Shown piece by piece: positions 1 to 10,505 of a stretch of DNA of 10,505 nucleotides. A program made the translations under genes and the position numbers. The notes below the pieces were generated by a model that did not search any database, was not told the origin of the DNA, and saw only the letters and a list, made by a program, of their open reading frames with translations. Each line of letters begins with the position of its first letter. Position 1 is the first letter of the stretch. This DNA is from a virus: UHGV virus genome UHGV-1624474. One strand, given 5' to 3'.

Positions 1-3
1 ATA

Positions 4-201
4 ATGTCGCTACCGCAGGAAACGAAAGAGGAAAAGGAATTTCGCCATTGTATATGGCTTGCAGAGAAAGAAGAACGCGAGCGAATTTACCAGACATCAA
101 TCCGACCATTCCGCAAAGCCACATATACCCACTTCCCTGAATATATCGACCCGCGCCTGCGTAATTACCGCTCACGCTATGGCGCTATCAGTAATGACTG
201 A
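4..201 (+). CDS. hypothetical prophage protein; frame is open back to nt 1, so the true start may lie upstream of the window
   Basis: 65-aa ORF ending at TGA 199-201. It is followed 7 nt later by the next start with its own Shine-Dalgarno, which fits the operon frame pattern. No recognisable motif. Confidence 0.35.
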
Positions 202-211
202 GGAATTTACC

Positions 212-376
212 ATGAGAGGACTTGCATACAATCCCGGCATTCTTCCGGCAGAAATGATTATTCGCCAACGCGTAAAGCCAATGCCATCGAGAGAGGAATT
301 GCTTAAGAGAAATAGTTTCGGTTCTGTTAATGACAACAAATATCTGAATGCGATGTGGCGGAGTGGGAAAAAATGA
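212..376 (+). CDS. small hypothetical protein (54 aa)
   Basis: ATG at 212 preceded by GAGGA (200-204) at 7-nt spacing. Stop TGA 374-376 overlaps the next start (ATGA). The ORF track lists a longer alternative frame start at 59 with no ribosome-binding site. Confidence 0.45.
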
Positions 377-972
377 AACAAATGTCACTAATTGAGATGG
401 ATGGTTTTCTGAAAGGTAAATGCATCCCAAGTGATTTAAAGGTTAACGAAACAAACGCTGAGTATCTGGTGCGTAAATTTGCTGAAGCGGAGGCCAAGAT
501 TTCGGCTCTGTCCGAAGACCACCAGAAAGCGATTGAGTCAATTAAGCAGGCTGATGCGGCTGTTAAGTTGGCACACGAGAAGTTTTCGGCGCTGGCGGCG
601 GAGAATGCGGGGCTGAAGGGTGCGTTTGATAAGCCTCAAGCATATCTATCCTGGCACGCTATTCCACCAAGCTGGGAAGACCCGCTCCCATGCGGTGAAT
701 ATCTTGATGTTCATGACGAGGCAGGACACAAAAACTCCGATGGAACTGATTGCTGGCCGGTATATGCCAAGCCAGAAATCGAGACCACAGCCACCTACGC
801 ATTCCTGGCTGAAGTACGGGCGCAGGGGGTAGAGATGTACGCAGATAACCTCGACAACGGAGCAGACGACGCAGAACGAGGTGGTTTTGATTATGCCGTT
901 AAGTTTCTACGCAGTGAAGCGTCTGGTGTACGTTTGTTCGCCGACCAGCTTCGCAAAGGAGGCAACCAGTGA
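373..972 (+). CDS. hypothetical prophage protein with predicted coiled-coil N-terminal half
   Basis: ORF track 355..972 (GTG 355). I prefer ATG 373, which overlaps the upstream stop as ATGA. Stop TGA 970-972 overlaps the next start (GTGA). Ala/Glu/Lys-rich heptad-like segment [48 protein letters not shown]. Confidence 0.65.
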
Positions 973-1829
973 GCAAGATTGATTATCAGGCACTGCGTGC
1001 TAAGGCAGAAAAAGCAACGTGTGGCGAGTGGTCTCTCGAGTATGGAGAGGGCCGATTTGATGGTGATGATGCACTAATTCATCGCGAGGCTGCTGGATAT
1101 ATTCCCATTTGCAGAATTGAAGGAGCGCATCCTGAAAGCGGTTTCGATGAAGATTTCCAAATAGAACAGCAGGCCAATGCTGAATTCATCGCCGCAGCCA
1201 ATCCGGCTACCGTCTTGGCGCTGCTGGATGAACTGGAAAGAAACCAGCAATACATCAAACGCCGCGACCAGGAGAACGAGGATATTGCGCTTACGGTTGG
1301 GAGGCTGCGCGTTGAGCTGGAAGGCAAAGACAGCAAAATAGCCAATCTTACCGCCGAACGCGATGCTCTTCGTGAAGGTGAGATGGGCGACGCTAGGCAT
1401 AGCAACACACGGGCCGCAGCTGATATCTACTTCCAACTGGTCGAGGAGTGCGAAATTCCTGCTGGCGGTTCTCTGGTCGAGTACGTTGACGATATGCGCG
1501 AGAAGCTGGAAGCCGCAGAGAAACGTCTGGCAGAACTACAATCTAAATCCATGCGACCTGTGGCGTGGATGAGAAGCGACGATATTACTACATTTGGACC
1601 AATATTCACCAAGAACGAAAACTATGCTGTTGAGCAGTGGGGAGATAATGCGGTAGCGCTTTATGCATCCCCAGTTAATTTCAAGTTGGCATGCTTCACT
1701 GACGAGAGAAATCTTAAGTACATCAATGAACGAGGAAGGGAGACATCTCTCATCTGGAGCGAAAGAAATTCAGAAAATGGTGATGTTCAACTTTTCCGCG
1801 CCGCAGGCATTCGCATCAAAGGAGAGTGA
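969..1829 (+). CDS. Ea22-like family prophage protein
   Basis: GTG start 969 with AAGGAGG at 954-960. N-terminus [21 protein letters not shown] and the motif FIAAANPATVLALLDELE match my recollection of ead/Ea22-like prophage proteins. Central coiled-coil; 286 aa. Confidence 0.7.
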   Translation: MSKIDYQALRAKAEKATCGEWSLEYGEGRFDGDDALIHREAAGYIPICRIEGAHPESGFDEDFQIEQQANAEFIAAANPATVLALLDELERNQQYIKRRDQENEDIALTVGRLRVELEGKDSKIANLTAERDALREGEMGDARHSNTRAAADIYFQLVEECEIPAGGSLVEYVDDMREKLEAAEKRLAELQSKSMRPVAWMRSDDITTFGPIFTKNENYAVEQWGDNAVALYASPVNFKLACFTDERNLKYINERGRETSLIWSERNSENGDVQLFRAAGIRIKGE

Positions 1830-1830
1830 T

Positions 1831-2118
1831 ATGGCAACTTTGCAGGAATTAATCGACCTGACGCCGGAACAGGAAAAAGCGTGGAATCGCCTTGTGAAGG
1901 CTGTAAAGGATTTCAGGGCATCCGGAGGAAAGTTTTATAGCGTCCTGGACACGCTGAGCGCATACAACGGTGAGCACGTTGCCAGCATTGATAACGATAA
2001 GGGCTACCACACTGCAAGCGTCTATATGCCTAGCATTGATGCGCCAGGGCTAACCAGTTGGGCTGATGATTGGCACGGCATCACGCTGAAAGATGGCGTT
2101 GAAGTGGATGAGGACTAA
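1831..2118 (+). CDS. hypothetical prophage protein (95 aa)
   Basis: ATG 1831 lies 1 nt after the upstream stop, with AAAGGAGAG at 1818-1826. The ORF track's 1663 start is an in-frame upstream extension overlapping the previous gene and is rejected. Confidence 0.65.
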   Translation: MATLQELIDLTPEQEKAWNRLVKAVKDFRASGGKFYSVLDTLSAYNGEHVASIDNDKGYHTASVYMPSIDAPGLTSWADDWHGITLKDGVEVDED

Positions 2119-2121
2119 CCC

Positions 2122-2814
2122 ATGACCACTATTACCAAAGAGCGACTACTGACAATCAAGCAGTGGCGCGAAACATACGGACCTGGTAGCAACGTTGTAC
2201 TGCCAGCAGAAGAAGCGGAAGAACTGGCACGAATTGCACTGGCATCGCTGGAAGCAGAACCGGTGGCGTGGATGCGTGATGACGCAGATGGTCGTGAGTA
2301 TAACGCTCGCAATGAATTTTCTGATGGAGGGAAAGGAATTCCGCTATATCGTGTGCCGCCAGCGCCGGAAGTGCCGGAAGAAATATATTGGCAGGATGCG
2401 CCAGTTGAAGGCAGCATCAAAGCGGCTGCATACGCTACAGACTGGAACGCCTGCCGCGCCGCCATGCTTCATGGTGCCAAACCTGTAAGCCAGACTTACA
2501 AGTTAAACGAGCTGTCGGGCAACTCTCCGGTAACTCCGGATGGTTGGATAAGCTGTAGTGAGCAGATGCCTGTAATCGGCGAGCTAAATTGGAGAACTAG
2601 TTTTCCTTTACTGGTTACGTGTGAGATCGGCGTTATACCTGCTTATTACGGCTTTGTGAGCGTTAATGGTGATAGGCATTATGGCTTTATGGAGAGTCTT
2701 AAATACGGAGACGATAACGGCAACCATCCTCAAACTAATGAATATGGTCTGATTAGCAATGTCACACACTGGATGCCTCTACCAGAACCGCCTCAGGAGG
2801 TTAACCGTGGCTAA
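2122..2814 (+). CDS. DUF551-like prophage protein
   Basis: ATG 2122 with GAGGA at 2110-2114. C-terminal segment WISCSEQMP...VTHWMPLPEPP resembles the DUF551 hallmark. N-terminal EAEPVAWMRDD module is shared with the Ea22-like protein. Confidence 0.7.
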   Translation: MTTITKERLLTIKQWRETYGPGSNVVLPAEEAEELARIALASLEAEPVAWMRDDADGREYNARNEFSDGGKGIPLYRVPPAPEVPEEIYWQDAPVEGSIKAAAYATDWNACRAAMLHGAKPVSQTYKLNELSGNSPVTPDGWISCSEQMPVIGELNWRTSFPLLVTCEIGVIPAYYGFVSVNGDRHYGFMESLKYGDDNGNHPQTNEYGLISNVTHWMPLPEPPQEVNRG

Positions 2815-3088
2815 TCTGCAACTTGCCGTTAAAGGTGAATACTTCGATGCCATGATTCGCGGGGAGAAAACGGAAGAGTATCGCTTGTGTAATGACTACT
2901 GGAATAAGCGAATTATGTTCCGGGAGTATGACCGCCTGATTATCACGAAGGGATATCCGAAGCGCGACGACTTCAGTCGCAGAATTGATGTCCCGTATGA
3001 CGGATATGAAATCAAGACAATCACACATCCCCACTTCGGCGATAAACCGGTAAAGGTATACGCGATAAAGGTGAATATCAATTGCTAA
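2807..3088 (+). CDS. ASCH/DUF3850-like (PUA-fold) small protein, tentative
   Basis: GTG 2807 with AGGAGG at 2795-2800, overlapping the upstream gene by 8 nt. Pattern GEYFDAMIRGEKTEEYR...YDRLIITKGY resembles ASCH-type domains. Track start 2759 lacks a ribosome-binding site. Confidence 0.5.
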   Translation: MANLQLAVKGEYFDAMIRGEKTEEYRLCNDYWNKRIMFREYDRLIITKGYPKRDDFSRRIDVPYDGYEIKTITHPHFGDKPVKVYAIKVNINC

Positions 3089-3112
3089 ATTAGTAGCATA
3101 GCATAAAGATGC

Positions 3113-3136
3113 TTGCATTAATGAAGTGTGTATAAT
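3113..3136 (+). promoter_or_regulatory. candidate sigma70-type promoter for the AT-rich small-ORF insert
   Basis: Perfect -10 TATAAT at 3131-3136 with TG-rich sequence immediately upstream. The nearest -35-like hexamer, TTGCAT 3113-3118, is at a suboptimal 12-nt spacing. Confidence 0.2.
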
Positions 3137-3199
3137 AACGCCTCATCAATAGTAAACTACTGAAATAGCAAAAAATGCATATTAAAGAGGATTCGAAAA

Positions 3200-3391
3200 T
3201 TGAAAATGTTCATGCAAATAGACAGACGCATAGATATTAATGGCAATTCATACTTAGTTAGATGCGAAGAGAGGCCTAACGGTGAGTGGCGTGTATATGA
3301 TATTGACCGTAAGATCAATATCAGCACCATGAACAAAGACACTGCCTTTGATGAATGGAAAGCTGAAGCTAAAAAACAACATAATTCGTAG
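3200..3391 (+). CDS. small hypothetical protein (63 aa) in AT-rich insert
   Basis: TTG 3200 lies 9 nt after AAAGAGG (3184-3190); ATG 3206 is an alternative. Stop TAG 3389-3391, followed by a hairpin terminator. No recognisable domain. Confidence 0.35.
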   Translation: MKMFMQIDRRIDINGNSYLVRCEERPNGEWRVYDIDRKINISTMNKDTAFDEWKAEAKKQHNS

Positions 3392-3433
3392 AATTACAAA
3401 AACCCTAACCAATTGATGGATTTCTTTTATCTG

Positions 3434-3460
3434 AACTCGCTACGGCGAGTTTTGTTTTAT
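3434..3460 (+). terminator. candidate intrinsic terminator
   Basis: 7-bp stem AACTCGC/GCGAGTT (3434-3440 / 3445-3451) with loop TACG, followed by TTGTTTTAT. Confidence 0.4.
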
Positions 3461-3471
3461 GGAGATGATAA

Positions 3472-3639
3472 ATGCACTTCCGAGTCACAGGTGAATGGAA
3501 TGGAGAGCCATTCAACAGGGTTATCGAAGCAGAGGACATCAACGACTGCTATAACCACTGGATGATATGGGCGCAGATAGCACATGCAGACGTAACCAAT
3601 ATTCGAATTGAAGAACTGAAAGAACACCAAACCGCCTGA
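3472..3639 (+). CDS. small hypothetical protein (55 aa)
   Basis: ATG 3472 with GGAG at 3461-3464 (7-nt spacing). Translation MHFRVTGEWNGEPFNRVIEAEDINDCYNHWMIWAQIAHADVTNIRIEELKEHQTA. Stop TGA 3637-3639 sits in the loop of the following terminator. Absent from the ORF track because it is under 60 aa. Confidence 0.4.
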   Translation: MHFRVTGEWNGEPFNRVIEAEDINDCYNHWMIWAQIAHADVTNIRIEELKEHQTA

Positions 3640-3654
3640 TGGCGGTTTTTTATT
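3630..3654 (+). terminator. rho-independent terminator
   Basis: Stem AACCGCC (3630-3636) / GGCGGTT (3641-3647) with loop TGAT, immediately followed by TTTTTTATT. Confidence 0.65.
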
Positions 3655-3696
3655 GCCTGATTTGCAGGTTCGATTCCCTATTCGGAGATAGCACTC

Positions 3697-3897
3697 ATGC
3701 AACACGAACTACAGCCTGATTCACTGGTTGATTTGAAATTCATCATGGCCGATACTGGCTTTGGTAAAACCTTCATCTACGACCGTATTAAGTCCGGCGA
3801 CTTGCCAAAAGCCAAAGTTATCCACGGGCGAGCAAGATGGTTATATCGTGACCATTGTGAATTCAAAAATAAGCTCTTAAGCCGCGCCAATGGGTAA
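3697..3897 (+). CDS. AlpA-family phage transcriptional regulator / excisionase (Xis-like)
   Basis: 66 aa. ATG 3697 with GGAGA at 3684-3688. Helix-turn-helix core LVDLKFIMADTGFGKTFIYDRIKSGDLPKAKVIHGRARWLYRD is typical of the AlpA/Xis (Phage_AlpA) family. Sits directly upstream of the integrase on the same strand. Confidence 0.85.
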   Translation: MQHELQPDSLVDLKFIMADTGFGKTFIYDRIKSGDLPKAKVIHGRARWLYRDHCEFKNKLLSRANG

Positions 3898-4109
3898 AAT
3901 AGCGGGTAAAATATTTCTCACATCTAAAAAACACCATTCCAATCAATCCCCTGCCGCCTCAAGTAGATGTCTGCAGGGGACACCATTTACACCTCTCCTG
4001 AAATCTACCATATCCCATAAAAAGCCTTTATAATCAGTATATACCCTTACTTATGTTACTCAAATAGTCGCCGTGATTCTCCTCAGGGGTACGTAAATCA
4101 AGTCACATT

Positions 4110-4159
4110 TGGGGGCCTATTTAGGGGCACATATTGGTCAATCTATTGCGAGGCCCCCA
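4110..4159 (+). promoter_or_regulatory. inverted repeat overlapping the integrase ribosome-binding site
   Basis: TGGGGGCCT (4110-4118) and its reverse complement AGGCCCCCA (4151-4159), separated by 32 nt. The right arm covers the int Shine-Dalgarno GAGG (4150-4153), 2 nt before ATG 4161. A perfect TATAAT is at 4029-4034 upstream. Confidence 0.3.
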
Positions 4160-4160
4160 G

Positions 4161-5351
4161 ATGCCACTGACAGCTCGACAAGTTGAAACAGCCAAACCCA
4201 AAGATAAAATTTATAAAATTGCCGATGGTGGTGGGCTCTACCTGCAGGTCAATCCTAACGGCTCAAAGTACTGGCGAATGAAGTACCACTATGCAGGGAA
4301 GGAAAAGAAACTATCATTTGGCACCTATCCAACTATTACATTGGCTGAAGCTCGCAAACGTCGGGATGAAGCCAAGAAAATACATGCCGATGGTAAAGAC
4401 CCCGGTGAAGTCAAGAAAGCTGAAAATCTTGAGAAAAACCTTTCTGAAGGAAGAACTTTTGCCACAATCGCCACCGAGTGGTACAACGCAAAAGTTTCAG
4501 GCTGGTCGGCCAGCTACGCTGATTATGTCGACAGAGCATTCAAAAATAATGTGTTTCCCTACATTGGAAACAGACCCATCAGTGATATCGAACCTCTTGA
4601 ACTTCTCGCAGTTCTTCAGCGTATTGAAAGCCGCGGAGCCTGCGAGCTAGCTAATAAAGTTCGCCAACGATGTGGTGAAGTGTTTCGGTATGCCATTGTT
4701 ACAGGTAGGGCTCGATACAATCCAGCCTCTGATCTGGTTATAGCAATGAAAAGCCATAAACGAACACATTACCCATTCCTGCTTCCTCCTGAACTACCAG
4801 AGTTTTTGTACAAACTCGAAAACTACACCGGCAGTATTGTAACCCGTGAAGCTACAAAATTGTTGATGCTCACAGGGCTGAGGACCGTAGAATTACGTAT
4901 GGGGGAATGGTGTGAGATCGATTTTTCCCAAAAAATATGGGAAGTGCCTCCGACCCGGATGAAAATGAGGAAGGAACATATTGTTCCCCTCTCAAATCAG
5001 GCAATTCGGTCTCTCCAAATCCTTAAAGAACTGACGGGAAGATACAGATACATCTTTGCCGGAAGAAATGATGTTAACAGGCCTATCAGCGATGCAAGCG
5101 TCAATATGGTTTTGAAGAAGATTGGCTATGACAAAAAAGCTACCGGGCATGGTTTTCGTCATACAATGAGTACTATTCTACATGAGAAAGGATTCAATAG
5201 TGCATGGATTGAAATGCAACTTGCACATACGGACAAAAACAGCATTCGTGGTACATACAACCATGCTCGTTACCTTGAAGGAAGACGAGAAATGATGCAA
5301 TGGTACGCTGACTACCTTGATGCTATTCGAAAAGATTCCCCAGCTATATAA
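4161..5351 (+). CDS. int: tyrosine site-specific integrase, P4-type (N-terminal DUF4102 arm-binding domain)
   Basis: N-terminus MPLTARQVETAKPKDKIYKIADGGGLYLQVNPNGSKYWRMKYHYAGKEKKLSFGTYP is the DUF4102 signature. C-terminal catalytic boxes TGLRTVELR, HGFRHT, LAH and RGTYNHARY (nucleophilic Tyr) are present. Track start 4134 (TTG) is an upstream extension; ATG 4161 gives the canonical N-terminus. Confidence 0.92.
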   Translation: MPLTARQVETAKPKDKIYKIADGGGLYLQVNPNGSKYWRMKYHYAGKEKKLSFGTYPTITLAEARKRRDEAKKIHADGKDPGEVKKAENLEKNLSEGRTFATIATEWYNAKVSGWSASYADYVDRAFKNNVFPYIGNRPISDIEPLELLAVLQRIESRGACELANKVRQRCGEVFRYAIVTGRARYNPASDLVIAMKSHKRTHYPFLLPPELPEFLYKLENYTGSIVTREATKLLMLTGLRTVELRMGEWCEIDFSQKIWEVPPTRMKMRKEHIVPLSNQAIRSLQILKELTGRYRYIFAGRNDVNRPISDASVNMVLKKIGYDKKATGHGFRHTMSTILHEKGFNSAWIEMQLAHTDKNSIRGTYNHARYLEGRREMMQWYADYLDAIRKDSPAI

Positions 5352-5368
5352 TCACTTGATTTTAAAGG

Positions 5369-5424
5369 CTGACTTAACGAAATACCTTGATAGTCATTTA
5401 TCAGTAATCTAATAGTTAAGTCAG
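5369..5424. repeat. 10-bp inverted repeat downstream of int; candidate attachment-site or recombinase-binding region
   Basis: CTGACTTAAC (5369-5378) and GTTAAGTCAG (5415-5424) are exact reverse complements separated by 36 nt. They lie in the 90-bp AT-rich gap between the int stop and the IS remnant. Confidence 0.3.
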
Positions 5425-5441
5425 TCATAATCCCCTAAGTA

Positions 5442-5913
5442 TCACTCCTCAATCAGTTTCAGCACATTGTTGACCTGTCTCCAGTATTCGATACAACCAT
5501 CAGTCAGCCTGCTGGCACGACGTTGCGACAGACCCGTTGCCTCACACATGACTTCCACGGCTTCCCACTTCTGTTCTGTCGTCAGAATTTCGGTCCAGAG
5601 CTACCTGAAGTACCTCCTTATCCAGCATGGTTTTGGCGAGCAGCGTCTTGAGGGGTCGTTCTCCTCTTCAGGTGTCTTAAGCCGCTTTACCTCAGGGACT
5701 TCTATTCCACCAAACTTCGGCGCCCGGTGTAGAAAGTAGCGTCTGAAATAGCATTCTTGCGGCAGAGTTCCCGGGCAGAAACGCCGGCTACGGCCTCGCG
5801 GAGGATACTGATAATCTGTTCGTCGGAAAACACTTCTTCATGGGGATACCCTAACGTTGCTGATGAAGACATTACTTACATCGTGGTATATTAATAAATG
5901 TGGGAGCAGGTCA
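5442..5913 (-). pseudogene. IS3-family (IS407-group-like) insertion sequence remnant: frameshifted orfA plus first codons of orfB, truncated
   Basis: Minus-strand ATG at 5872 gives MSSSATLGYPHEEVFSDEQIISILREAVAGVSARELCRKNAISDATFY, then a stop. Two shifted frames continue with KFGGIEVPEVKRLKTPEEEND, LLAKTMLDKEVLQVAL and EVMCEATGLSQRRASRL, matching the conserved IS3 OrfA pattern. Candidate terminal repeat TGACCTGCTCCCA on the minus strand at 5913-5901. No DDE domain follows. Confidence 0.7.
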
Positions 5914-5990
5914 ACTCCACAATGCAGTCCACTGAGGGAAGAGATCATTAGGTGCAAAGGATCTACATTAGTGGCTGAAAACAACTAGAA

Positions 5991-6019
5991 TTTAGAATTA
6001 AAAAGTTTTATCCTATATT
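5991..6019 (+). promoter_or_regulatory. candidate promoter of the SIR2-DUF262 operon
   Basis: -10-like TATATT (6014-6019) with -35-like TTTAGA (5991-5996) at 17-nt spacing in an AT-rich leader. Purely a hexamer match. Confidence 0.2.
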
Positions 6020-6058
6020 AGTAAGTATTTTTGTTAACACTTTTGTAAGGATACTTTT

Positions 6059-7108
6059 TTGAGCAGCGAAAAAAAAAAGAAAGTTGGGTTAATGCTTGGG
6101 AATGGATTCACTATTGACCTCCTTAGCAAAATGGACAAACTTGATATAATTGACCCATCCGATCTATTTAAATATGGCGATATGGTTAAGTGGCCCGCCA
6201 CTGGGGAACCCGGTTTTCTTTCTGCTCGATATTGCCCAAATCTATGGCGATTGGGTGCAAGACCCGGGCTAAATAGAACCGCATCATATCAAATAATAGA
6301 AGAATTAATTACAGTAATAAATTTATATGCAACTCTACCTCCAGAAACAATAAAGAAGAAAAATCAGGCAAGTCATACTCCATTGTCAAACATTTACATT
6401 TATGCTTATCAAGAATTAGTTTCATATTTAAGGGAGCTTTTCATTGATTATAACGAAAAAGTTTCCTCTGAAGATCTACGTAAGTTAGAAAGTGGCTGGC
6501 GAGACTATTTGATGAAACTGGACAAAAACGAAAACATAGAACGAGTTGATATTATAACTTATAACTATGACATTTATCTTGAGCGCCTTCTTGATTTACT
6601 TAATATCAGATTTGACATCCCAAACATATCTGACGGGAATGCAAAGTTTAAAATATACAAACCACATGGCTCTATTAGCTTCTTGTATGAAGGATATATG
6701 TCAAAAGATAACTACAATATCCAAAAAGAGTTATCTTTAAATAATGGCGACATATCAAAATTCGAATGCCGGCATGAAAACTTAAGCCTTTACATGCCAT
6801 TAATTCCAATAATACCGCCAGCAGGAGAAGCTCATCGTTATGCCCAAAACTGGGCTAATTCAATTAAAGAGTCTATTGAAGCGACGATGGAGTCGTACAA
6901 CCCAAACGATGATTTCTTCATTTGTGGTATTTCATATTGGCATGTTGATCGTGCCGAAATTGATGCAATAATACGCAAAATAAACAGTGACGTTAATGTT
7001 AGAATGATTAATCCAGGAAATGTTGATGGTTTAAGTGCTATACTTGGAATGGTATTTAATAGTTATGTTCATCATTCATCATCTGAAGTTTTAAAGGAGC
7101 TTGCCTAA
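6059..7108 (+). CDS. SIR2-like (SIR2_2 / DHS-like NAD-binding fold) protein; putative NAD+-consuming defense effector
   Basis: 349 aa. TTG 6059 with AAGGA (6047-6051) at 7-nt spacing; ATG 6092 is an alternative start. Glycine loop LMLGNGFTID (aa 11-20), motif IITYNYDIYLE (aa 165-175; codons 6551-6583) and KPHGSI (aa 201-206; His codon 6665-6667) match the bacterial SIR2 hallmarks GAGxS / TTNYD / K-x-HGS. Hand-counted sample lines are about 25-40% G+C. Confidence 0.78.
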   Translation: MSSEKKKKVGLMLGNGFTIDLLSKMDKLDIIDPSDLFKYGDMVKWPATGEPGFLSARYCPNLWRLGARPGLNRTASYQIIEELITVINLYATLPPETIKKKNQASHTPLSNIYIYAYQELVSYLRELFIDYNEKVSSEDLRKLESGWRDYLMKLDKNENIERVDIITYNYDIYLERLLDLLNIRFDIPNISDGNAKFKIYKPHGSISFLYEGYMSKDNYNIQKELSLNNGDISKFECRHENLSLYMPLIPIIPPAGEAHRYAQNWANSIKESIEATMESYNPNDDFFICGISYWHVDRAEIDAIIRKINSDVNVRMINPGNVDGLSAILGMVFNSYVHHSSSEVLKELA

Positions 7109-8136
7109 TGGAAATTTTAAAGCGGGATTCAAACAGTATTAATATTGCTTCCTTTTGGGAGGGCTTTTCATTAGGCAAATTTAATTTTGATCCTCCTTAT
7201 CAAAGAGATAGTGTTTGGGATGAAGAAAAACAATCATTCTTTATAGATAGTATACTACGTAACTATCCAATTCCCCCTATATTTCTCCATCAAAAAATTG
7301 ATGATGACACCGGAAGAATCACGTTTGAAGTTGTTGACGGAAAACAGAGGCTCACTGCCATTGTTAATTTTATCAATGGCCAAATAACATCAGCAAGTGA
7401 GGAAGAAGATGATGAATTGACTGGTGTGTTTTTTTCCGATTTATCAACTTCTAAATATGCAGAAGTTAAAAAATTATTCTGGCGATATCAGATGCCTATA
7501 GAGTACATTGATACTGAAGACGAAAGAATAATTGATAGTATTTTCGACAGGCTTAACAGAAATGGTGAACGACTTAACGGACAAGAGTTAAGGAATGCCA
7601 AATATCATGATACTGATTTTTATAAAAAAATAGTAGAATATTCACAACGTGAATATTGGCAAAAATTGCTAGAGCACGTTGATAAGAAGAGAATGGAAGA
7701 CAAAGAGTTTGTATCTGAATTGATATTCACGATCCTTGAGGATGAAGTATTTGGTGCAACTCAAGACATAATTGATAGTCTTTACGAGAAGTATTGCACC
7801 AAGAATGGTGATGAAACAAATGAGGCATTTTCTATTTTTGAAAAAACAACTGACTATTTAGTTGATATGAATATTGATTTCAAAAGTCATAAAGCAAGCG
7901 GTGTTAGTCACTTATACGGAATCTTCAGTTATGCACTTTATTGCAGTAACAATAATGTTCCTGTAGAAGAAGCGTCAAATAGACTTTCCACCTTCCTGGA
8001 TAGCTTGTGGGAAAAAGATACACAACATAATGCGGAATTAAGAAGAGAATATAGAAAAACTATGAGTTCTAGCACAAAAAGCAAAACCCAACGCTCACGT
8101 AGAATTGAAGTGCTTTTAAATCTACTTCACGATTAA
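7108..8136 (+). CDS. DUF262 (ParB/Srx-like NTPase) domain protein; no recognisable DUF1524/HNH nuclease module
   Basis: 342 aa. ATG 7108 overlaps the upstream TAA by 1 nt (TAATG), with AAAGGAG at 7093-7099. DUF262 motifs FDPPYQRDSVWDEEK (YQR codons 7198-7206), IDSILRNYPIPPIFL and VVDGKQRLTAI (about 7327-7359). The C-terminal half is helical with no obvious H-N-H catalytic pattern. Confidence 0.85.
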   Translation: MEILKRDSNSINIASFWEGFSLGKFNFDPPYQRDSVWDEEKQSFFIDSILRNYPIPPIFLHQKIDDDTGRITFEVVDGKQRLTAIVNFINGQITSASEEEDDELTGVFFSDLSTSKYAEVKKLFWRYQMPIEYIDTEDERIIDSIFDRLNRNGERLNGQELRNAKYHDTDFYKKIVEYSQREYWQKLLEHVDKKRMEDKEFVSELIFTILEDEVFGATQDIIDSLYEKYCTKNGDETNEAFSIFEKTTDYLVDMNIDFKSHKASGVSHLYGIFSYALYCSNNNVPVEEASNRLSTFLDSLWEKDTQHNAELRREYRKTMSSSTKSKTQRSRRIEVLLNLLHD

Positions 8137-8149
8137 ACTATATAATAGT

Positions 8150-8178
8150 AGGAGTGAACTTCGCTCCTGCTTTTCTCA
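8150..8178 (+). terminator. weak candidate terminator after the DUF262 gene
   Basis: 5-bp stem AGGAG (8150-8154) / CTCCT (8164-8168) with a 9-nt loop, followed by GCTTTTCTC. Confidence 0.25.
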
Positions 8179-8788
8179 CTCTATCTTTTATTATTTCTCT
8201 TTGAGATATGAAGTAATACTTTAAAAATATAAATCACATTCATCGCATATGATATTGTGATATCCCCACATGGTGCATGTTCGTAGTCTATCCCTCAGGC
8301 AAATAATAATAGAAAGTTAACCGAATCAGTTATACTCTCACCCAGATATTAGGATGGCTAAATCAACATGAGTGCAAGGATCGTCTTGGGGGAAACATTG
8401 GCACTGTGTGATGGCTCATCATTAAAAAATCAGTTTATATCAAAAGTAAATGATTACAGAAAAACTATATTTATAGATAAAGAAAAAAGCATTTAATTAC
8501 TTCTTAAATATGATAATCACACTCTGTGAAATGATACTTTGACTTACTTCCAATTATTAAACCACGAGATTCATGCATTACCATAATCATTTAAGAAAAC
8601 AAAAGTCCGGCCTTTGCTCTTATCAACCACTACAATTCATAAAGAAATCCTGTTGATGCAAAAAAAAGACATTGATCACAATATCGAGTTAATCATTTGA
8701 AAGTTTATTACTCACATTGAAAAATTTCTCAGTATCAGATATACCAACGTTGAGGGCTTCCCTCTTACATCTCAAAAGGATAACTATC

Positions 8789-8917
8789 ATGGGTCTTAAA
8801 CCAGGTCCAAAACCAATTGCTAAATCGACAGGAAAACCGGATCAACGCCGACGAGATAATAAAGATACTCCTGGCAACACTCCGGGACTAAAGCCAAGTA
8901 AGTCCACCGGGAAGTAA
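8789..8917 (+). CDS. small Lys/Pro/Gly-rich protein (42 aa) with internal repeats
   Basis: ATG 8789 with AAGGA (8776-8780) at 8-nt spacing. Translation MGLKPGPKPIAKSTGKPDQRRRDNKDTPGNTPGLKPSKSTGK has GLKP and KSTGK each twice. -35-like TTGAAA at 8717-8722. Track start 8717 is an upstream TTG extension. Confidence 0.4.
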   Translation: MGLKPGPKPIAKSTGKPDQRRRDNKDTPGNTPGLKPSKSTGK

Positions 8918-8922
8918 AAAAT

Positions 8923-8951
8923 CAGGGTATAAATAAGTTATTTATACCCTG
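8923..8951. terminator. perfect palindromic hairpin between convergent genes; terminator for the minus-strand gene, possibly bidirectional
   Basis: CAGGGTATAAATAA (8923-8936), G, TTATTTATACCCTG (8938-8951): 14-bp perfect arms. On the minus strand the hairpin is followed by ATTTTTTA (complement of 8915-8922). Confidence 0.6.
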
Positions 8952-8965
8952 ACTACATATCCAGT

Positions 8966-9861
8966 TTACTGAAGGTGTTTCTGCAGCCAGATGCACGTTC
9001 CTTCTGTATCATACGCCTGTGCCCCATACCCTGTAGCAAGCAAAGTCTCTGGTAAATACTCGTCATATTTATCCAGGTACTTGTCAGGAACAACTGCAGC
9101 AAGCTCAAACTCTGAAGGTAACCCCGACAATAACATTTTCTTAAGTGCACGCTGAACAGAGGCAACGCCTGAGCCCTCTACCTCTATCACACCTGCAAAT
9201 GAACTGGCTTTAAAGCCACAACGTATAAGCAGGGACGTAATTGTATTGACAATTTTATCCCCCATCCACGGGATCACGTAGCAGTTCTGACCACTGGCAA
9301 TAAAACAGTGATTTTGTAGATTGTAGCGTTGGAAGTTGTCACTTCCTTCCGCGAAGAGGCTTCTGGCTGCGGCATCAGCATAATCAACTCTCTTGTTGCC
9401 TACCGCGATACGGTAATCATTTTCCCTGTAGATAGCGAGCATCTCCTGGCGAACAACATCATGAACAGACATCCCGCTACCACTGAATAGTGGTGGCTGC
9501 CCGCCTTTAGTCGCCTCAACATAGATAGCTTTTTTTCAACCTCGATCTCTGTCACTTTCCAGCGCTGTCCGCCGAAGATGATGTGCTGCTCCGGCAAAAG
9601 TGGGGAGTCTACAGGCACTGTGCCAAGAGTTCGGTTTCCCGTTACAATGCGAAACTCCTCAGATGTATTGAATACGGCATAAAACGTGTAGTGATTAATC
9701 AGCTTCTCCCCCTCAGCCCCGACAACTATTTAACCGCTGGCTAGTTGAGTGAGCAGGCCACATGTCCCCATATGTTTAAGCAGACTTTTGAAGTCATTTA
9801 TATCCACATTCCGGAACGGACCTGTCTGGCAAAGTTGTGACCAGAGCTGATCGGCACGAAC
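8966..9861 (-). pseudogene. decayed C-terminal fragment of a larger gene of unknown function (5' end removed by the IS insertion, in-frame stop, homopolymer frameshift)
   Basis: Minus-strand frame is open from the IS end (9861) to an in-frame TAA at 9732-9730, then continues to a frame break at the A7 run (plus-strand T7, 9530-9536). One extra A would join it to the 168-aa ORF 8966-9472. About 50% G+C. Reconstructed sequence about 295 aa; no family recognised. Confidence 0.6.
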
Positions 9862-10505
9862 TGAACCGCCCCGGGTTTCCTGGAGAGTGTTTTATCTGTG
9901 AACTCAGGCTGCCAGATCATCGTTTCCGATGGAAGCATAATAAGCTTTTTCTGCTTCTGCCGGAGGAGTATGGCCCAGCCTTCCCAGCAATCGTCGATTG
10001 TTATACCAGTCCACCCACGTTAGTGTGGCCAGTTCCACTTCTGCACGGTTTTTCCAGCTCTTACGGTGTATTACCTCCGCTTTGTAAAGACCATTGATGC
10101 TCTCAGCCATCGCGTTGTCATACGAGTCGCCTGTACTCCCTGTTGATGCCAGTAATCCGGCTTCTTTTAGTCGCTCCGTATAGGCCAGTGACACATACTG
10201 AGAGCCTTTATCGCTGTGATGGATGGTGCCAGACGGACGACGGGCCCACAACGCCTGCTCCAGCGCATCCAGCACGAATGTCGTTTCCATAGACGATGAG
10301 ACCCGCCACCCCACGATGTATCCGGCAAACACATCAATGATAAACGCCACATAGACGAAGCCCTGCCATGTGCTGACGTAAGTAAAATCAGCCACCCACA
10401 GCTGGTCAGGTCGTTCTGCCACGAACTGACGGTTTACGCGGTCGCCTGCGGCAACGGCTTTCCGGCTGATGGTCGTACGGACCTTTTTACCCCGGAGAAC
10501 ACCGG
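9862..10505 (-). mobile_element. IS3-family insertion sequence (IS629/IS3411-like), right end; continues beyond the window
   Basis: Terminal sequence TGAACCGCCCCGGG at 9862-9875 matches the inverted-repeat start I recall for IS629/IS1203/IS3411. The OrfB stop is 42 bp inside it. Confidence 0.75.
9904..10505 (-). CDS. IS3-family transposase OrfB (DDE integrase core), N-terminus outside the window
   Basis: Translation has NRQF-x-A-x-x-PDQLWVADFTYV, HSDKGSQYVS and DSYDNAMAESINGLYKAEVIH, the canonical IS3 DDE-region motifs. The frame is open from 10422 to the window edge at 10505 (GVLRGKKVRTTISRKAVAAGDRVNRQF...). Confidence 0.85.
   Translation of the reverse strand, partial: GVLRGKKVRTTISRKAVAAGDRVNRQFVAERPDQLWVADFTYVSTWQGFVYVAFIIDVFAGYIVGWRVSSSMETTFVLDALEQALWARRPSGTIHHSDKGSQYVSLAYTERLKEAGLLASTGSTGDSYDNAMAESINGLYKAEVIHRKSWKNRAEVELATLTWVDWYNNRRLLGRLGHTPPAEAEKAYYASIGNDDLAA

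What the first reader, a model, noticed from the sequence alone, without database searches (positions are those of the whole stretch)
7108..8136. DUF262 protein lacks a recognisable DUF1524/HNH nuclease module: the effector role may have been swapped to SIR2
In GmrSD, BrxU and SspE the DUF262 NTPase is fused to a His-Me finger (DUF1524) nuclease. Here the 342-aa protein has the DUF262 motifs in its first ~90 residues and a helical, motif-poor C-terminal region with no H-N-H-type pattern that I can see. The upstream partner supplies a different effector chemistry (NAD+ hydrolysis). That would turn a restriction-type module into an abortive-infection module, which suggests modular effector exchange.
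Basis: inference. Interest (0 to 1): 0.6.

Follow-up and report, generated by a model that had tools for sequence, protein, structure and literature searches.

The report
SIR2 plus nuclease-less DUF262 defence pair
A bacterial DNA-sensor protein of the GmrSD/DUF262 type that lacks its usual DNA-cutting domain is always encoded just after a SIR2 (NAD-destroying type) enzyme, which looks like an undescribed but widespread two-gene anti-phage module built from known parts.

Summary

The effector-exchange reading is therefore supported by architecture. NAD+ depletion, abortive infection and the trigger remain untested. The principle is already published: PD-T4-2, Menshen and Dazbog all use DUF262 without DUF1524. 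I found no paper describing the SIR2 pairing. I rate it a new variant of a known kind, of moderate interest. About a third of related loci also carry a complete m5C type II R-M system directly beside the pair.

The parts
6059..7108 (+). Gene 1: 349-aa single-domain SIR2-family protein, the predicted NADase effector. It starts at TTG, with AAGGA at 6048-6052 as a likely ribosome-binding site.
6098..6106 (+). G14-N15-G16, the glycine-rich loop after the first Rossmann strand of the SIR2 protein.
   Evidence: Invariant in alignment A2. Present in 62 of 62 ungapped loci.
6563..6571 (+). N169-Y170-D171, the SIR2 catalytic 'NYD' motif.
   Evidence: Conserved in 64 of 64 loci. It aligns to TTNYD of PsSIR2 8w9l.
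6659..6673 (+). K201-P202-H203-G204-S205, the SIR2 catalytic histidine motif.
   Evidence: Conserved in 64 of 64 loci. It aligns to KLHGS of PsSIR2 8w9l.
7094..7110 (+). Gene junction. AAGGAG at 7094-7099 lies upstream of the gene 2 ATG. The stop TAA of gene 1 (7106-7108) overlaps the ATG of gene 2 (7108-7110) by one base (TAATG), an arrangement consistent with translational coupling.
   Evidence: Read from the sequence. In related loci the gap between the two genes is mostly -1 to -17 nt.
7108..8136 (+). Gene 2: 342-aa DUF262 (ParB-like NTPase) protein with a helical C-terminal domain and no nuclease domain. It is the predicted sensor and regulator.
   Evidence: ORF. Pfam GmrSD_N E=3.7e-27. 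PADLOC NsnA E=1.9e-39 over residues 11-340, and PD-T4-2_A E=1.4e-27. PHROG 2598 E=2.8e-48. Structural model.
7186..7605 (+). DUF262/ParB-like NTPase domain, residues 27-166. Motif I is QRDSVW (7201-7218), motif II is DGKQR (7336-7350) and motif III is FDRLNRNGE (7543-7569).
7615..8127 (+). C-terminal all-helical domain, residues 170-340, of the ParBDB / NsnA-C type. Family-specific motifs are RMEDKEFVSE (7690-7719) and GVSHLYG (7900-7920).
   Evidence: DSSP of the model shows ten helices and no strands. Pfam finds no family. Adding the C-terminal half raises the NsnA score from 104 to 134 bits. A profile of this domain finds 345 cluster representatives, nearly all about 340-370 aa with the domain at the C-terminal end. 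The ParBDB concept comes from PMC12065111.
4134..5351 (+). Context: tyrosine integrase of the island that carries the pair. In other E. coli strains it sits next to tRNA-Arg, downstream of yfdC.
   Evidence: Pfam hits to Phage_int_M, Arm-DNA-bind_3 and Phage_integrase. Annotation of strain M21816.
5498..5614 (-). Context: IS3-family (IS1222-type) frameshift element inside a transposase remnant that lies between the integrase and gene 1.
   Evidence: Rfam RF00383, 98.5 bits. PGAP annotates a transposase pseudogene here.
8966..9472 (-). Context: C-terminal remnant of a Shango SngC-type helicase (pseudogene). It shows that the locus is a defence island.
   Evidence: PADLOC SngC E=4.9e-30, matching model positions 564-719 of 720. 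PGAP annotates a DEAD/DEAH helicase pseudogene here.

Best explanation
Genes 6059-7108 and 7108-8136 form one two-gene anti-phage module carried on an integrase-associated defence island.

Gene 2 is a GmrSD-type sensor core. It combines a ParB-like DUF262 NTPase with a helical ParBDB-type DNA-binding domain, and it has no nuclease of its own. Gene 1 is a stand-alone SIR2 enzyme of the defence type.

The most likely mechanism has three steps. The DUF262 protein binds invading DNA, probably modified DNA as in GmrSD, BrxU, SspE and Dazbog. It uses NTP binding and hydrolysis as a switch. It then activates the SIR2 partner, probably within a complex, and SIR2 destroys NAD+ so that the infected cell stops supporting phage replication (abortive infection).

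Shown here: both folds, the conserved catalytic motifs, the strict gene pairing, and the complementary distribution in which HNH-less proteins always have a SIR2 partner while HNH-fused relatives stand alone.

Inferred only: a physical complex, NADase activity, the nature of the trigger and the abortive outcome.
For: - Folds: gene 2 is a DUF262 protein with an all-helical C-terminal half. Gene 1 has a SIR2 fold whose best matches are NADase effectors of defence systems: PsSIR2, SIR2-HerA, ThsA and Avs5.
- Catalytic residues are conserved in 64 of 64 species-level loci at about 58% mean divergence: SIR2 N169, D171 and H203, and DUF262 QR..W, DGKQR and F...N.
- Operon structure: a 1-nt TAATG overlap with an AAGGAG site upstream.
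- Pairing: 76 of 76 testable genome loci from Pseudomonadota, Bacillota, Bacteroidota, Verrucomicrobiota, Planctomycetota, Cyanobacteria, Nitrospirota and others, and 5 of 5 viral contigs.
- Co-evolution: mean pairwise distances of 0.576 and 0.580, Pearson r=0.83.
- Effector position is variable. P0348 (38% identical over residues 3-227, E=9e-41) and P0345 carry a C-terminal HNH domain. They sit without any SIR2-like ORF, P0345 between hisH and ligA. The 543-aa variant P0246 keeps the SIR2 partner.
- Defence context: integrase, IS remnants and a Shango remnant flank the pair in the window. R-M systems and recombinases flank it elsewhere.
- Precedents: DUF262 is described as a sensor that activates an associated effector through its NTPase activity in SspE and GmrSD, and the ParBDB domain as DNA-binding (PMC12065111). 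Dazbog (DUF262) is abortive. SIR2 effectors deplete NAD+ (Garb et al. 2022, as cited in PMC13064643).
Against: - No experiment bears on this pair, and I found no paper on it.
- Sequence hits of gene 1 to SIR2 models are weak and below curated cut-offs, so the SIR2 assignment rests on the predicted fold and the motifs.
- No complex prediction could be run.
- The inter-domain arrangement of the gene 2 model is uncertain (pTM 0.63).
- The C-terminal domain has an invariant Ser-His (GVSHLYG) and several invariant acidic residues whose role is unknown.
- Some SIR2-family enzymes are ADP-ribosyltransferases or deacylases rather than NADases (SirTM 5a3a and the sirtuins also appear).
- The frequent m5C R-M neighbours hint at a link to DNA methylation that this model does not explain.
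Confidence: 0.6

Rival explanations
1. The pair reads DNA methylation state and is functionally coupled to neighbouring m5C type II R-M systems. It could fire on DNA that lacks the host m5C mark, making it an R-M-like abortive arm that shares the methyltransferase. Or it could fire on foreign m5C or hypermodified cytosine, as Dazbog does.
For: - 27 of 76 related loci have a C5-cytosine methyltransferase next to the pair.
- All C5-methyltransferase ORFs detected in the +/-6 kb flanks lie within 1.9 kb of the pair, with none at 2-6 kb.
- Only 3 flank ORFs carry an amino-methyltransferase-type motif.
- C5 DNA_methylase is the commonest immediate neighbour, 13 of 138.
- The association recurs in several phyla with different restriction enzymes: Cfr10I/Bse634I, NgoMIV, NaeI, EcoO109I and small HNH proteins.
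- Dazbog, another DUF262 system, becomes toxic in the presence of a phage m5C methylase.
Against: - Where I checked, the methyltransferases have their own restriction enzyme, with or without Vsr, so they form complete independent R-M systems.
- 49 of 76 loci, including this window, have no adjacent methyltransferase.
- Clustering with R-M systems is expected in defence islands.
- I had no background frequency for comparison other than the distance distribution within the flanks.
Confidence: 0.12
2. The roles are reversed. The DUF262 protein is the toxic effector, acting by NTP depletion or a ParB-like nuclease activity, and SIR2 is a sensor or regulator such as a deacylase or ADP-ribosyltransferase.
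For: - A ParB-CTPase fold has been reported as an ATPase toxin (bioRxiv 10.64898/2026.05.05.722872).
- Deacylases and the ADP-ribosylating SirTM are also among the SIR2 fold matches.
Against: - The best SIR2 fold matches are defence NADase effectors with the same NYD and HGS motifs.
- In characterised DUF262 systems this domain is described as a sensor that acts through its NTPase activity.
- Where the SIR2 partner is missing, relatives carry an HNH domain, which places SIR2 in the effector slot.
Confidence: 0.1
3. The pair is not mainly an anti-phage system. It is an addiction or toxin-antitoxin-like module, or a DNA-maintenance module, of mobile elements, with the DUF262 protein holding a toxic SIR2 in check.
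For: - The pair is always found on islands or (pro)phage contigs, next to integrases, recombinases and IS elements.
- The gene overlap and obligate pairing are also typical of toxin-antitoxin pairs.
Against: - Both proteins are large enzymes with conserved active sites, unlike a simple antitoxin.
- The closest families, by sequence for gene 2 and by fold for gene 1, are all anti-phage components: NsnA, PD-T4-2_A, BrxU, SspE, SIR2-HerA and ThsA.
- Neighbours are often other defence systems.
Confidence: 0.08
4. The C-terminal half of gene 2 hides a cryptic nuclease, so the protein is still a restriction enzyme and SIR2 is accessory. One candidate would be a HEPN-like all-helical RNase that uses the invariant His268.
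For: - Ser267-His268 is invariant, with a basic residue often six positions upstream (K/R-x5-H), at the start of a helix.
- E204 is invariant and E200 and D223 are nearly so.
- DUF262-HEPN fusions are known (PMC3632139).
Against: - No nuclease or HEPN family is found by Pfam at E<=10 or by PADLOC.
- The upstream basic residue is not conserved; it is S or A in some homologues.
- The homologous domain in the HNH-fused relatives has Phe in place of His268.
- The equivalent domain of SspE is described as a DNA-binding domain.
Confidence: 0.04

Closest known systems
GmrSD / BrxU / SspE (DUF262-DUF1524 type IV restriction and phosphorothioate-sensing enzymes)
   Different: There is no DUF1524/His-Me finger domain. 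The protein is about 220-240 residues shorter than the solved BrxU and SspE chains. Sequence similarity is too low to detect against PDB sequences. The protein is obligately paired with a SIR2 gene.
Short DUF262-helical-HNH proteins (P0345, 419 aa; P0348, 427 aa), uncharacterised single-gene GmrSD-like proteins
   Same: They are the closest nuclease-bearing relatives I found. P0348 is 38% identical over residues 3-227 (E=9e-41). The C-terminal-domain profile matches them at about E=1e-10. They share the RM(E/G/R)D.E(F/Y).S(E/Q)L motif.
   Different: They carry a C-terminal HNH domain (PF01844) and have no SIR2 neighbour. They have Phe where the SIR2-linked family has the invariant His268.
Menshen NsnA (of NsnABC)
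   Same: It is the best profile match: PADLOC NsnA E=1.9e-39 over the whole length. It has the same two-domain ParB-DUF262 + ParBDB architecture without a nuclease. NsnA is proposed to be the sensor that hands over to separate effector proteins.
   Different: There is no NsnB ABC ATPase or NsnC effector downstream. Nothing of 60 aa or more lies on the + strand until 8717. The partner lies upstream and is a SIR2 protein.
PD-T4-2 (DUF262 protein + HEPN protein)
   Same: It is a two-gene system with a DUF262 protein lacking DUF1524. PADLOC PD-T4-2_A matches at E=1.4e-27 (PMC10952713).
   Different: The partner is SIR2, not HEPN. Gene 1 has no PD-T4-2_B hit.
Dazbog (DzbAB)
   Same: It is a two-gene system whose DUF262 gene lacks DUF1524. 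It is abortive and is triggered by a phage m5C methylase. It therefore sets the precedent for coupling a DUF262 sensor to an abortive outcome.
   Different: Neither gene hits a Dazbog model in PADLOC at E<=0.1. The gene order is reversed, with the DUF262 gene first in Dazbog. The sources I read do not report SIR2 in Dazbog.
SIR2-HerA (Nezha) and related stand-alone defence SIR2 effectors
   Different: The partner is a ParB-like DUF262 NTPase rather than a HerA hexameric ATPase. Sequence similarity is marginal (E=0.018).

Membership tests
GmrSD/BrxU/SspE type IV restriction family | N-terminal DUF262 (ParB-like NTPase) with the QR..W, DGxQR and F...N motifs | tested here: met
GmrSD/BrxU/SspE type IV restriction family | DUF1524 / His-Me finger (HNH-type) nuclease domain, either fused or as a separate GmrD gene | tested here: not met
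   Pfam finds nothing of this kind. The model has no beta-strand after residue 134. There are no nuclease fold hits. No adjacent ORF has an HNH or DUF1524 domain: gene 1 is SIR2, and no ORF of 60 aa or more follows on the + strand before 8717.
Menshen (NsnABC) | NsnA-like ParB-DUF262 + ParBDB protein | tested here: met
   PADLOC NsnA E=1.9e-39, residues 11-340 against model positions 51-379 of 385.
Menshen (NsnABC) | NsnB ABC ATPase and NsnC effector genes immediately downstream | tested here: not met
   No such ORFs lie downstream. Clustering of flanking ORFs found no conserved third gene other than the R-M genes present in about a third of the 76 related loci.
PD-T4-2 | PD-T4-2_A (DUF262) together with PD-T4-2_B (HEPN) | tested here: not met
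   The A-like hit is E=1.4e-27. There is no B hit, and the partner is SIR2.
Dazbog | DzbA and DzbB proteins | tested here: not met
   Neither gene hits a Dzb model in PADLOC at E<=0.1.
Defence-associated SIR2 NADase effectors | SIR2 Rossmann fold | tested here: met
Defence-associated SIR2 NADase effectors | Catalytic Asn/Asp (NYD) and His (HG) residues | tested here: met
   N169, Y170, D171, H203 and G204 are conserved in 64 of 64 loci. They align to the TTNYD and KLHGS motifs of 8w9l.
Defence-associated SIR2 NADase effectors | NAD+ hydrolysis on activation | not testable with these tools
   This needs a biochemical assay or NAD+ measurement in vivo.
SIR2-HerA (Nezha) / Thoeris ThsA | HerA ATPase partner (Nezha), or a SLOG domain with a TIR-protein partner (Thoeris) | tested here: not met
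   Gene 1 is a single 349-aa domain. The only partner is the DUF262 protein.
AbiH (Pfam PF14253) | Score above the Pfam gathering threshold | tested here: not met
   23 bits against a cut-off of 30.9. AbiH is itself described as sirtuin-like (PMC13064643), so the weak hit probably reflects the shared fold.

The most novel reading that the evidence does not exclude
The SIR2-DUF262 pair is a reader of cytosine-methylation state that works together with the m5C type II R-M systems so often found beside it, many of which have restriction enzymes of families known for CCGG-core sites. It would convert recognition of DNA with the wrong methylation pattern into NAD+ depletion. That would be restriction-modification logic with an abortive-infection output instead of DNA cleavage.
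Probability: 0.12. Interest if true: 0.8.

Novelty: new variant of a known kind. Interest (0 to 1): 0.5.

Why it matters
If confirmed, this would add a widespread two-gene system to the defence catalogue. Relatives were found in more than 550 of about 186,000 species genomes scanned, across some ten phyla and on phage contigs, and PADLOC 2.0 does not recognise the pair as a system.

It would also link two well-studied modules that have not been seen working together: the GmrSD-type DNA sensor and NTPase switch, and the SIR2 NADase.

The complementary pattern offers a clean natural experiment on how one sensor core is wired either to direct restriction or to abortive infection. HNH-fused relatives stand alone, and HNH-less proteins always have SIR2.

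It gives a tractable E. coli model, since the pair is present in ATCC 8739, for asking how a ParB-like NTPase activates a separate enzyme.

The unexpected adjacency to m5C R-M systems raises a testable question about methylation sensing.

Tried and rejected
- Sequence searches of both proteins and their profiles against PDB sequences gave nothing for gene 2 and only a marginal PsSIR2 hit for gene 1. Fold comparison was needed instead.
- Pfam and PADLOC scans of the C-terminal half alone found no family. NCBIfam gave only noise for both genes.
- I considered a HEPN-like reading of the K/R-x5-H at GVSH and rejected it. There is no HEPN hit by sequence or fold, the basic residue is not conserved, and the histidine is absent from the HNH-fused relatives.
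- I looked for a conserved third gene by clustering flank ORFs. The only recurrent cluster was C5 methyltransferases. I considered these as cognate partners but found they carry their own restriction enzymes and Vsr, so I kept this only as a rival and novel reading.
- The promoter and terminator scan of 5700-8500 found no more than shuffled sequence gives for promoters. It did not report the weak hairpin I see by eye at 8150-8168 followed by GCTTTTCT, so I do not claim a terminator.
- The repeat search of the island found no att-like or inverted repeats.
- Literature searches for SIR2 with DUF262, GmrSD, ParB or PF03235, and for the protein accessions, found no description of the pair. The WASA Vibrio paper and the GmrSD-diversity paper were checked and proved irrelevant to SIR2.
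Full report
**Where the window comes from**

The window is from E. coli or a very close relative. Bases 3971-10505 are about 100% identical to a chromosomal island found in 27 of 5426 complete E. coli genomes, including ATCC 8739. In strain M21816 the island sits next to tRNA-Arg, downstream of yfdC.

The island has this order:
- a tyrosine integrase (4134-5351);
- an IS3-family remnant with an IS1222-type frameshift element (5498-5614, minus strand);
- a low-GC (32-35%) two-gene cassette;
- about 830 bp without a convincing gene;
- the C-terminal remnant of a Shango SngC helicase (8966-9472, minus strand; PADLOC E=5e-30);
- another IS3 fragment (9904-10422, minus strand).

Bases 1-3970 are the end of a KplE1/CPS-53-like prophage with ead/Ea22, DUF551 and ASCH genes and the TorI excisionase. 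The setting is therefore an integrase-associated defence island.

**The observation**

ORF 7108-8136 encodes 342 aa. Pfam finds only GmrSD_N/DUF262, over residues 27-166 with E=3.7e-27. The three DUF262 motifs are all present and invariant in homologues:
- motif I, Q32-R33-x3-W37;
- motif II, D77-G-K-Q-R81;
- motif III, F146-D-R-L-N150-R-N-G-E154.

No DUF1524 or HNH module is detectable. A Pfam scan of residues 163-342 at E<=10 gives only noise. An AlphaFold2 model built on 52 homologues (mean pLDDT 87) has its last beta-strand at residues 128-134, and residues 170-340 form ten helices. A His-Me finger needs a beta-beta-alpha unit, and none is present.

The central observation is therefore confirmed.

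**The C-terminal half is a conserved domain, not a motif-poor tail**

R195, E204, H268, Y315 and R332 are conserved in 64 of 64 species-level loci. The motifs RMEDxEFxSE, GVSHLYG and Y.KSMSS.TKS..QR..R are conserved.

The PADLOC NsnA model aligns over the whole protein, residues 11-340, at 134 bits. The N-terminal half alone scores 104 bits. Li et al. (PMC12065111) describe the C-terminal domain of NsnA, and the middle domains of GmrSD, SspE and DndB, as an eight-helix 'ParBDB' DNA-binding domain. That is the best reading of residues 170-340.

A profile of this domain alone, searched against 1.84 billion cluster representatives, finds 345 proteins at E<=1e-3. Nearly all full-length hits are 340-370 aa with the domain at the C-terminal end.

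**The partner**

Gene 1 (6059-7108, TTG start, 349 aa) has only weak sequence hits: AbiH E=1e-4 and SIR2_2 E=3e-3, both below the curated cut-offs. Its AlphaFold2 model is confident (pLDDT 89, pTM 0.90).

The profile aligns ITYNYD and KPHGS to the TTNYD and KLHGS motifs of 8w9l. G14-N-G16, N169-Y-D171 and K201-P-H-G-S205 are invariant. AbiH is itself described as sirtuin-like (PMC13064643), which explains the weak AbiH hit.

**Are the two genes one unit?**

In the window, the stop codon of gene 1 and the start codon of gene 2 share one base (TAATG), with AAGGAG eight bases upstream.

I scanned one genome per species (GTDB) with the gene 2 profile. More than 559 loci were found, and I examined the best 80. 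In 76 of them a homologue of gene 1 lies directly upstream on the same strand, usually overlapping by 1-17 nt. In the other four the DUF262 gene sits at the very end of its contig, so the upstream region is missing.

The loci come from Pseudomonadota, Bacillota, Bacteroidota, Verrucomicrobiota, Planctomycetota, Cyanobacteria, Nitrospirota, Calditrichota, Deferribacterales and Campylobacterota. The reverse test also held. Starting from the SIR2 profile in IMG/VR viral contigs gave five loci, and all five have the DUF262 gene directly downstream.

Across 64 loci with both genes full length, the two proteins have the same mean pairwise distance (0.576 and 0.580), and the distances correlate (Pearson 0.83). 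Flank clustering found no conserved third gene.

This is a conserved two-gene operon.

**Evidence for effector exchange**

The C-terminal-domain search also picked up P0345 (419 aa) and P0348 (427 aa) at about E=1e-10. Pfam shows that they have a DUF262 domain, then the helical domain, then a C-terminal HNH domain (PF01844).

P0348 is 38% identical to gene 2 over residues 3-227 (E=9e-41). That is far closer than BrxU or SspE, which sequence searches do not detect at all.

Their genomic places have no SIR2-like ORF. P0345 sits alone between hisH and ligA. P0348 has 723 bp of upstream sequence with no called gene. A six-frame search of these loci with the SIR2 profile finds nothing. By contrast a 543-aa variant, P0246, which has an extra unannotated C-terminal extension, keeps the 349-aa SIR2 gene upstream (E=2e-120).

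So within this clade, proteins without HNH always have a SIR2 partner, and proteins with HNH stand alone. It does not say which form came first.

**Most likely mechanism**

What is shown is the folds, the conserved active-site residues, the obligate pairing and the complementary distribution. What is inferred comes from the named families.
- In SspE and GmrSD/BrxU, the DUF262 domain is described as sensing modified DNA and activating the attached nuclease through its NTPase activity, and the SspE middle domain as needed for DNA binding (PMC12065111; PMC10952713).
- Dazbog, a DUF262 system without DUF1524, acts by abortive infection and becomes toxic when a phage m5C methylase is expressed.
- Defence SIR2 proteins such as ThsA, DSR2, SIR2-HerA and SIR2-pAgo deplete NAD+ (as summarised).

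I therefore propose that the gene 2 protein is an NTP-gated DNA sensor, probably for modified DNA. It activates the gene 1 NADase, probably in a complex, which causes NAD+ depletion and abortive infection. I put this at about 0.6.

Functionally the pair resembles SIR2-HerA (a stand-alone SIR2 with a separately encoded NTPase) and PD-T4-2 or Menshen (a DUF262+ParBDB sensor with a separate effector). It fails the membership tests for all of these, because the defining partner proteins (HerA, HEPN, NsnB/NsnC, DzbAB) are absent.

**Rival readings**

- A methylation-state reader coupled to neighbouring m5C R-M systems (see the next section).
- Reversed roles, with the ParB-like NTPase as the toxin. 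A ParB-fold ATPase toxin has been reported.
- An addiction or toxin-antitoxin-like module of mobile elements.
- A cryptic nuclease using the invariant Ser267-His268. Against this, there is no nuclease or HEPN signal by sequence or fold, the upstream basic residue is variable, and the HNH-fused relatives have Phe at that position.

**An unexpected neighbour**

In 27 of the 76 related loci a C5-cytosine DNA methyltransferase lies beside the pair. All such ORFs found in the +/-6 kb flanks are within 1.9 kb of the pair, and none lies at 2-6 kb. Only three flank ORFs have an amino-methyltransferase-type motif. C5 DNA_methylase is the most frequent immediate neighbour, 13 of 138.

Where I checked, the methyltransferases come with their own restriction enzymes and often with Vsr. 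The enzymes are Cfr10I/Bse634I, NgoMIV, NaeI, EcoO109I and small HNH proteins. From my own knowledge, the first three families cut CCGG-core sites. These are complete type II R-M systems abutting the pair, in several phyla and on either side of it.

This may be ordinary defence-island clustering or co-mobilisation. The bias towards m5C and the tight spacing are nevertheless notable, given that Dazbog responds to m5C methylation. The E. coli window has no such neighbour.

**Novelty**

DUF262 proteins without DUF1524 that act with other effectors are already described: PD-T4-2, Menshen and Dazbog. DUF262 fusions to HNH, PD-(D/E)xK and HEPN were noted in 2013.

The specific SIR2 pairing was not found in any paper I could search. 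PADLOC 2.0 has no model that recognises gene 1 beyond generic SIR2 hits at E>1e-3. RefSeq annotates the genes only as 'SIR2 family protein' or 'hypothetical protein', and 'DUF262 domain-containing protein'.

I rate it a new variant of a known kind. It is of moderate interest and readily testable in E. coli.

Noticed in passing
Related loci L004-L079 (for example L019:3143-7038, L010:4968-9399, L069:2633-7065, L035:3258-7029): 27 of 76 loci have a complete m5C type II R-M system directly abutting the SIR2-DUF262 pair. Each has a C5 methyltransferase plus a restriction enzyme (Cfr10I/Bse634I, NgoMIV, NaeI, EcoO109I or a small HNH protein), often with Vsr. All detected C5 methyltransferases lie within 1.9 kb of the pair, none lies at 2-6 kb, and amino-methyltransferases are almost absent. 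This does not occur in the E. coli window.
   Followed up: partly
P0345, P0348 (loci L087-L094): Short single-gene proteins of about 420 aa with a DUF262 domain, the helical domain and a C-terminal HNH domain are the closest nuclease-bearing relatives of gene 2 (38% identity). P0345 sits between the housekeeping genes hisH and ligA, with no SIR2 neighbour.
   Followed up: yes
P0246/P0248 (locus L095:2948-5632): A variant of the DUF262 protein of about 540 aa has an extra C-terminal extension of about 190 aa with no Pfam match. It is still preceded by the 349-aa SIR2 gene and sits next to a serine recombinase.
   Followed up: partly
window 7900-7920 (residues 265-271, GVSHLYG): Ser267-His268 in the helical domain is invariant in the SIR2-linked family (His in 64 of 64 loci) but is Phe in the HNH-fused relatives. 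Its role is unknown.
   Followed up: partly
window 8966-9472 (-), extending to about 9868: This is the C-terminal remnant of a Shango SngC-type DEAD/DEAH helicase, matching PADLOC SngC positions 564-719 of 720. PGAP annotates it as a pseudogene with an internal stop. It is a decayed second defence system in the same island.
   Followed up: partly
window 5467-5900 (-) and 9904-10422 (-): IS3-family remnants bracket the cassette. The left one is an N-terminal transposase piece with an IS1222-type frameshift element at 5498-5614 (Rfam, 98.5 bits). The right one is a C-terminal rve-domain piece. Their relative order does not fit a single IS split by an insertion.
   Followed up: partly
window 1-3970: This is the end of a KplE1/CPS-53-like prophage, with ead/Ea22-like, DUF551 and ASCH genes and the TorI excisionase at 3697-3897. 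No complete E. coli genome in the collection has it joined to the island, where similarity starts at 3971. The window also holds no tRNA gene, although tRNA-Arg precedes the integrase in strain M21816. This suggests a tandem integration at the same site.
   Followed up: partly
window 8137-8965: About 830 bp of AT-rich sequence (about 32% GC) downstream of gene 2 has no convincing gene. It holds only a 66-aa ORF (8717-8917) rich in Lys, Pro and Gly. A weak hairpin at 8150-8168 followed by GCTTTTCT is visible by eye but was not reported by the terminator scan.
   Followed up: no
L018, L079, L033, L060: Some related loci carry decayed copies. The SIR2 ORF is truncated or split in L018 and L079, and the DUF262 ORF is truncated to about 140-150 aa in L033 and L060.
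   Followed up: no
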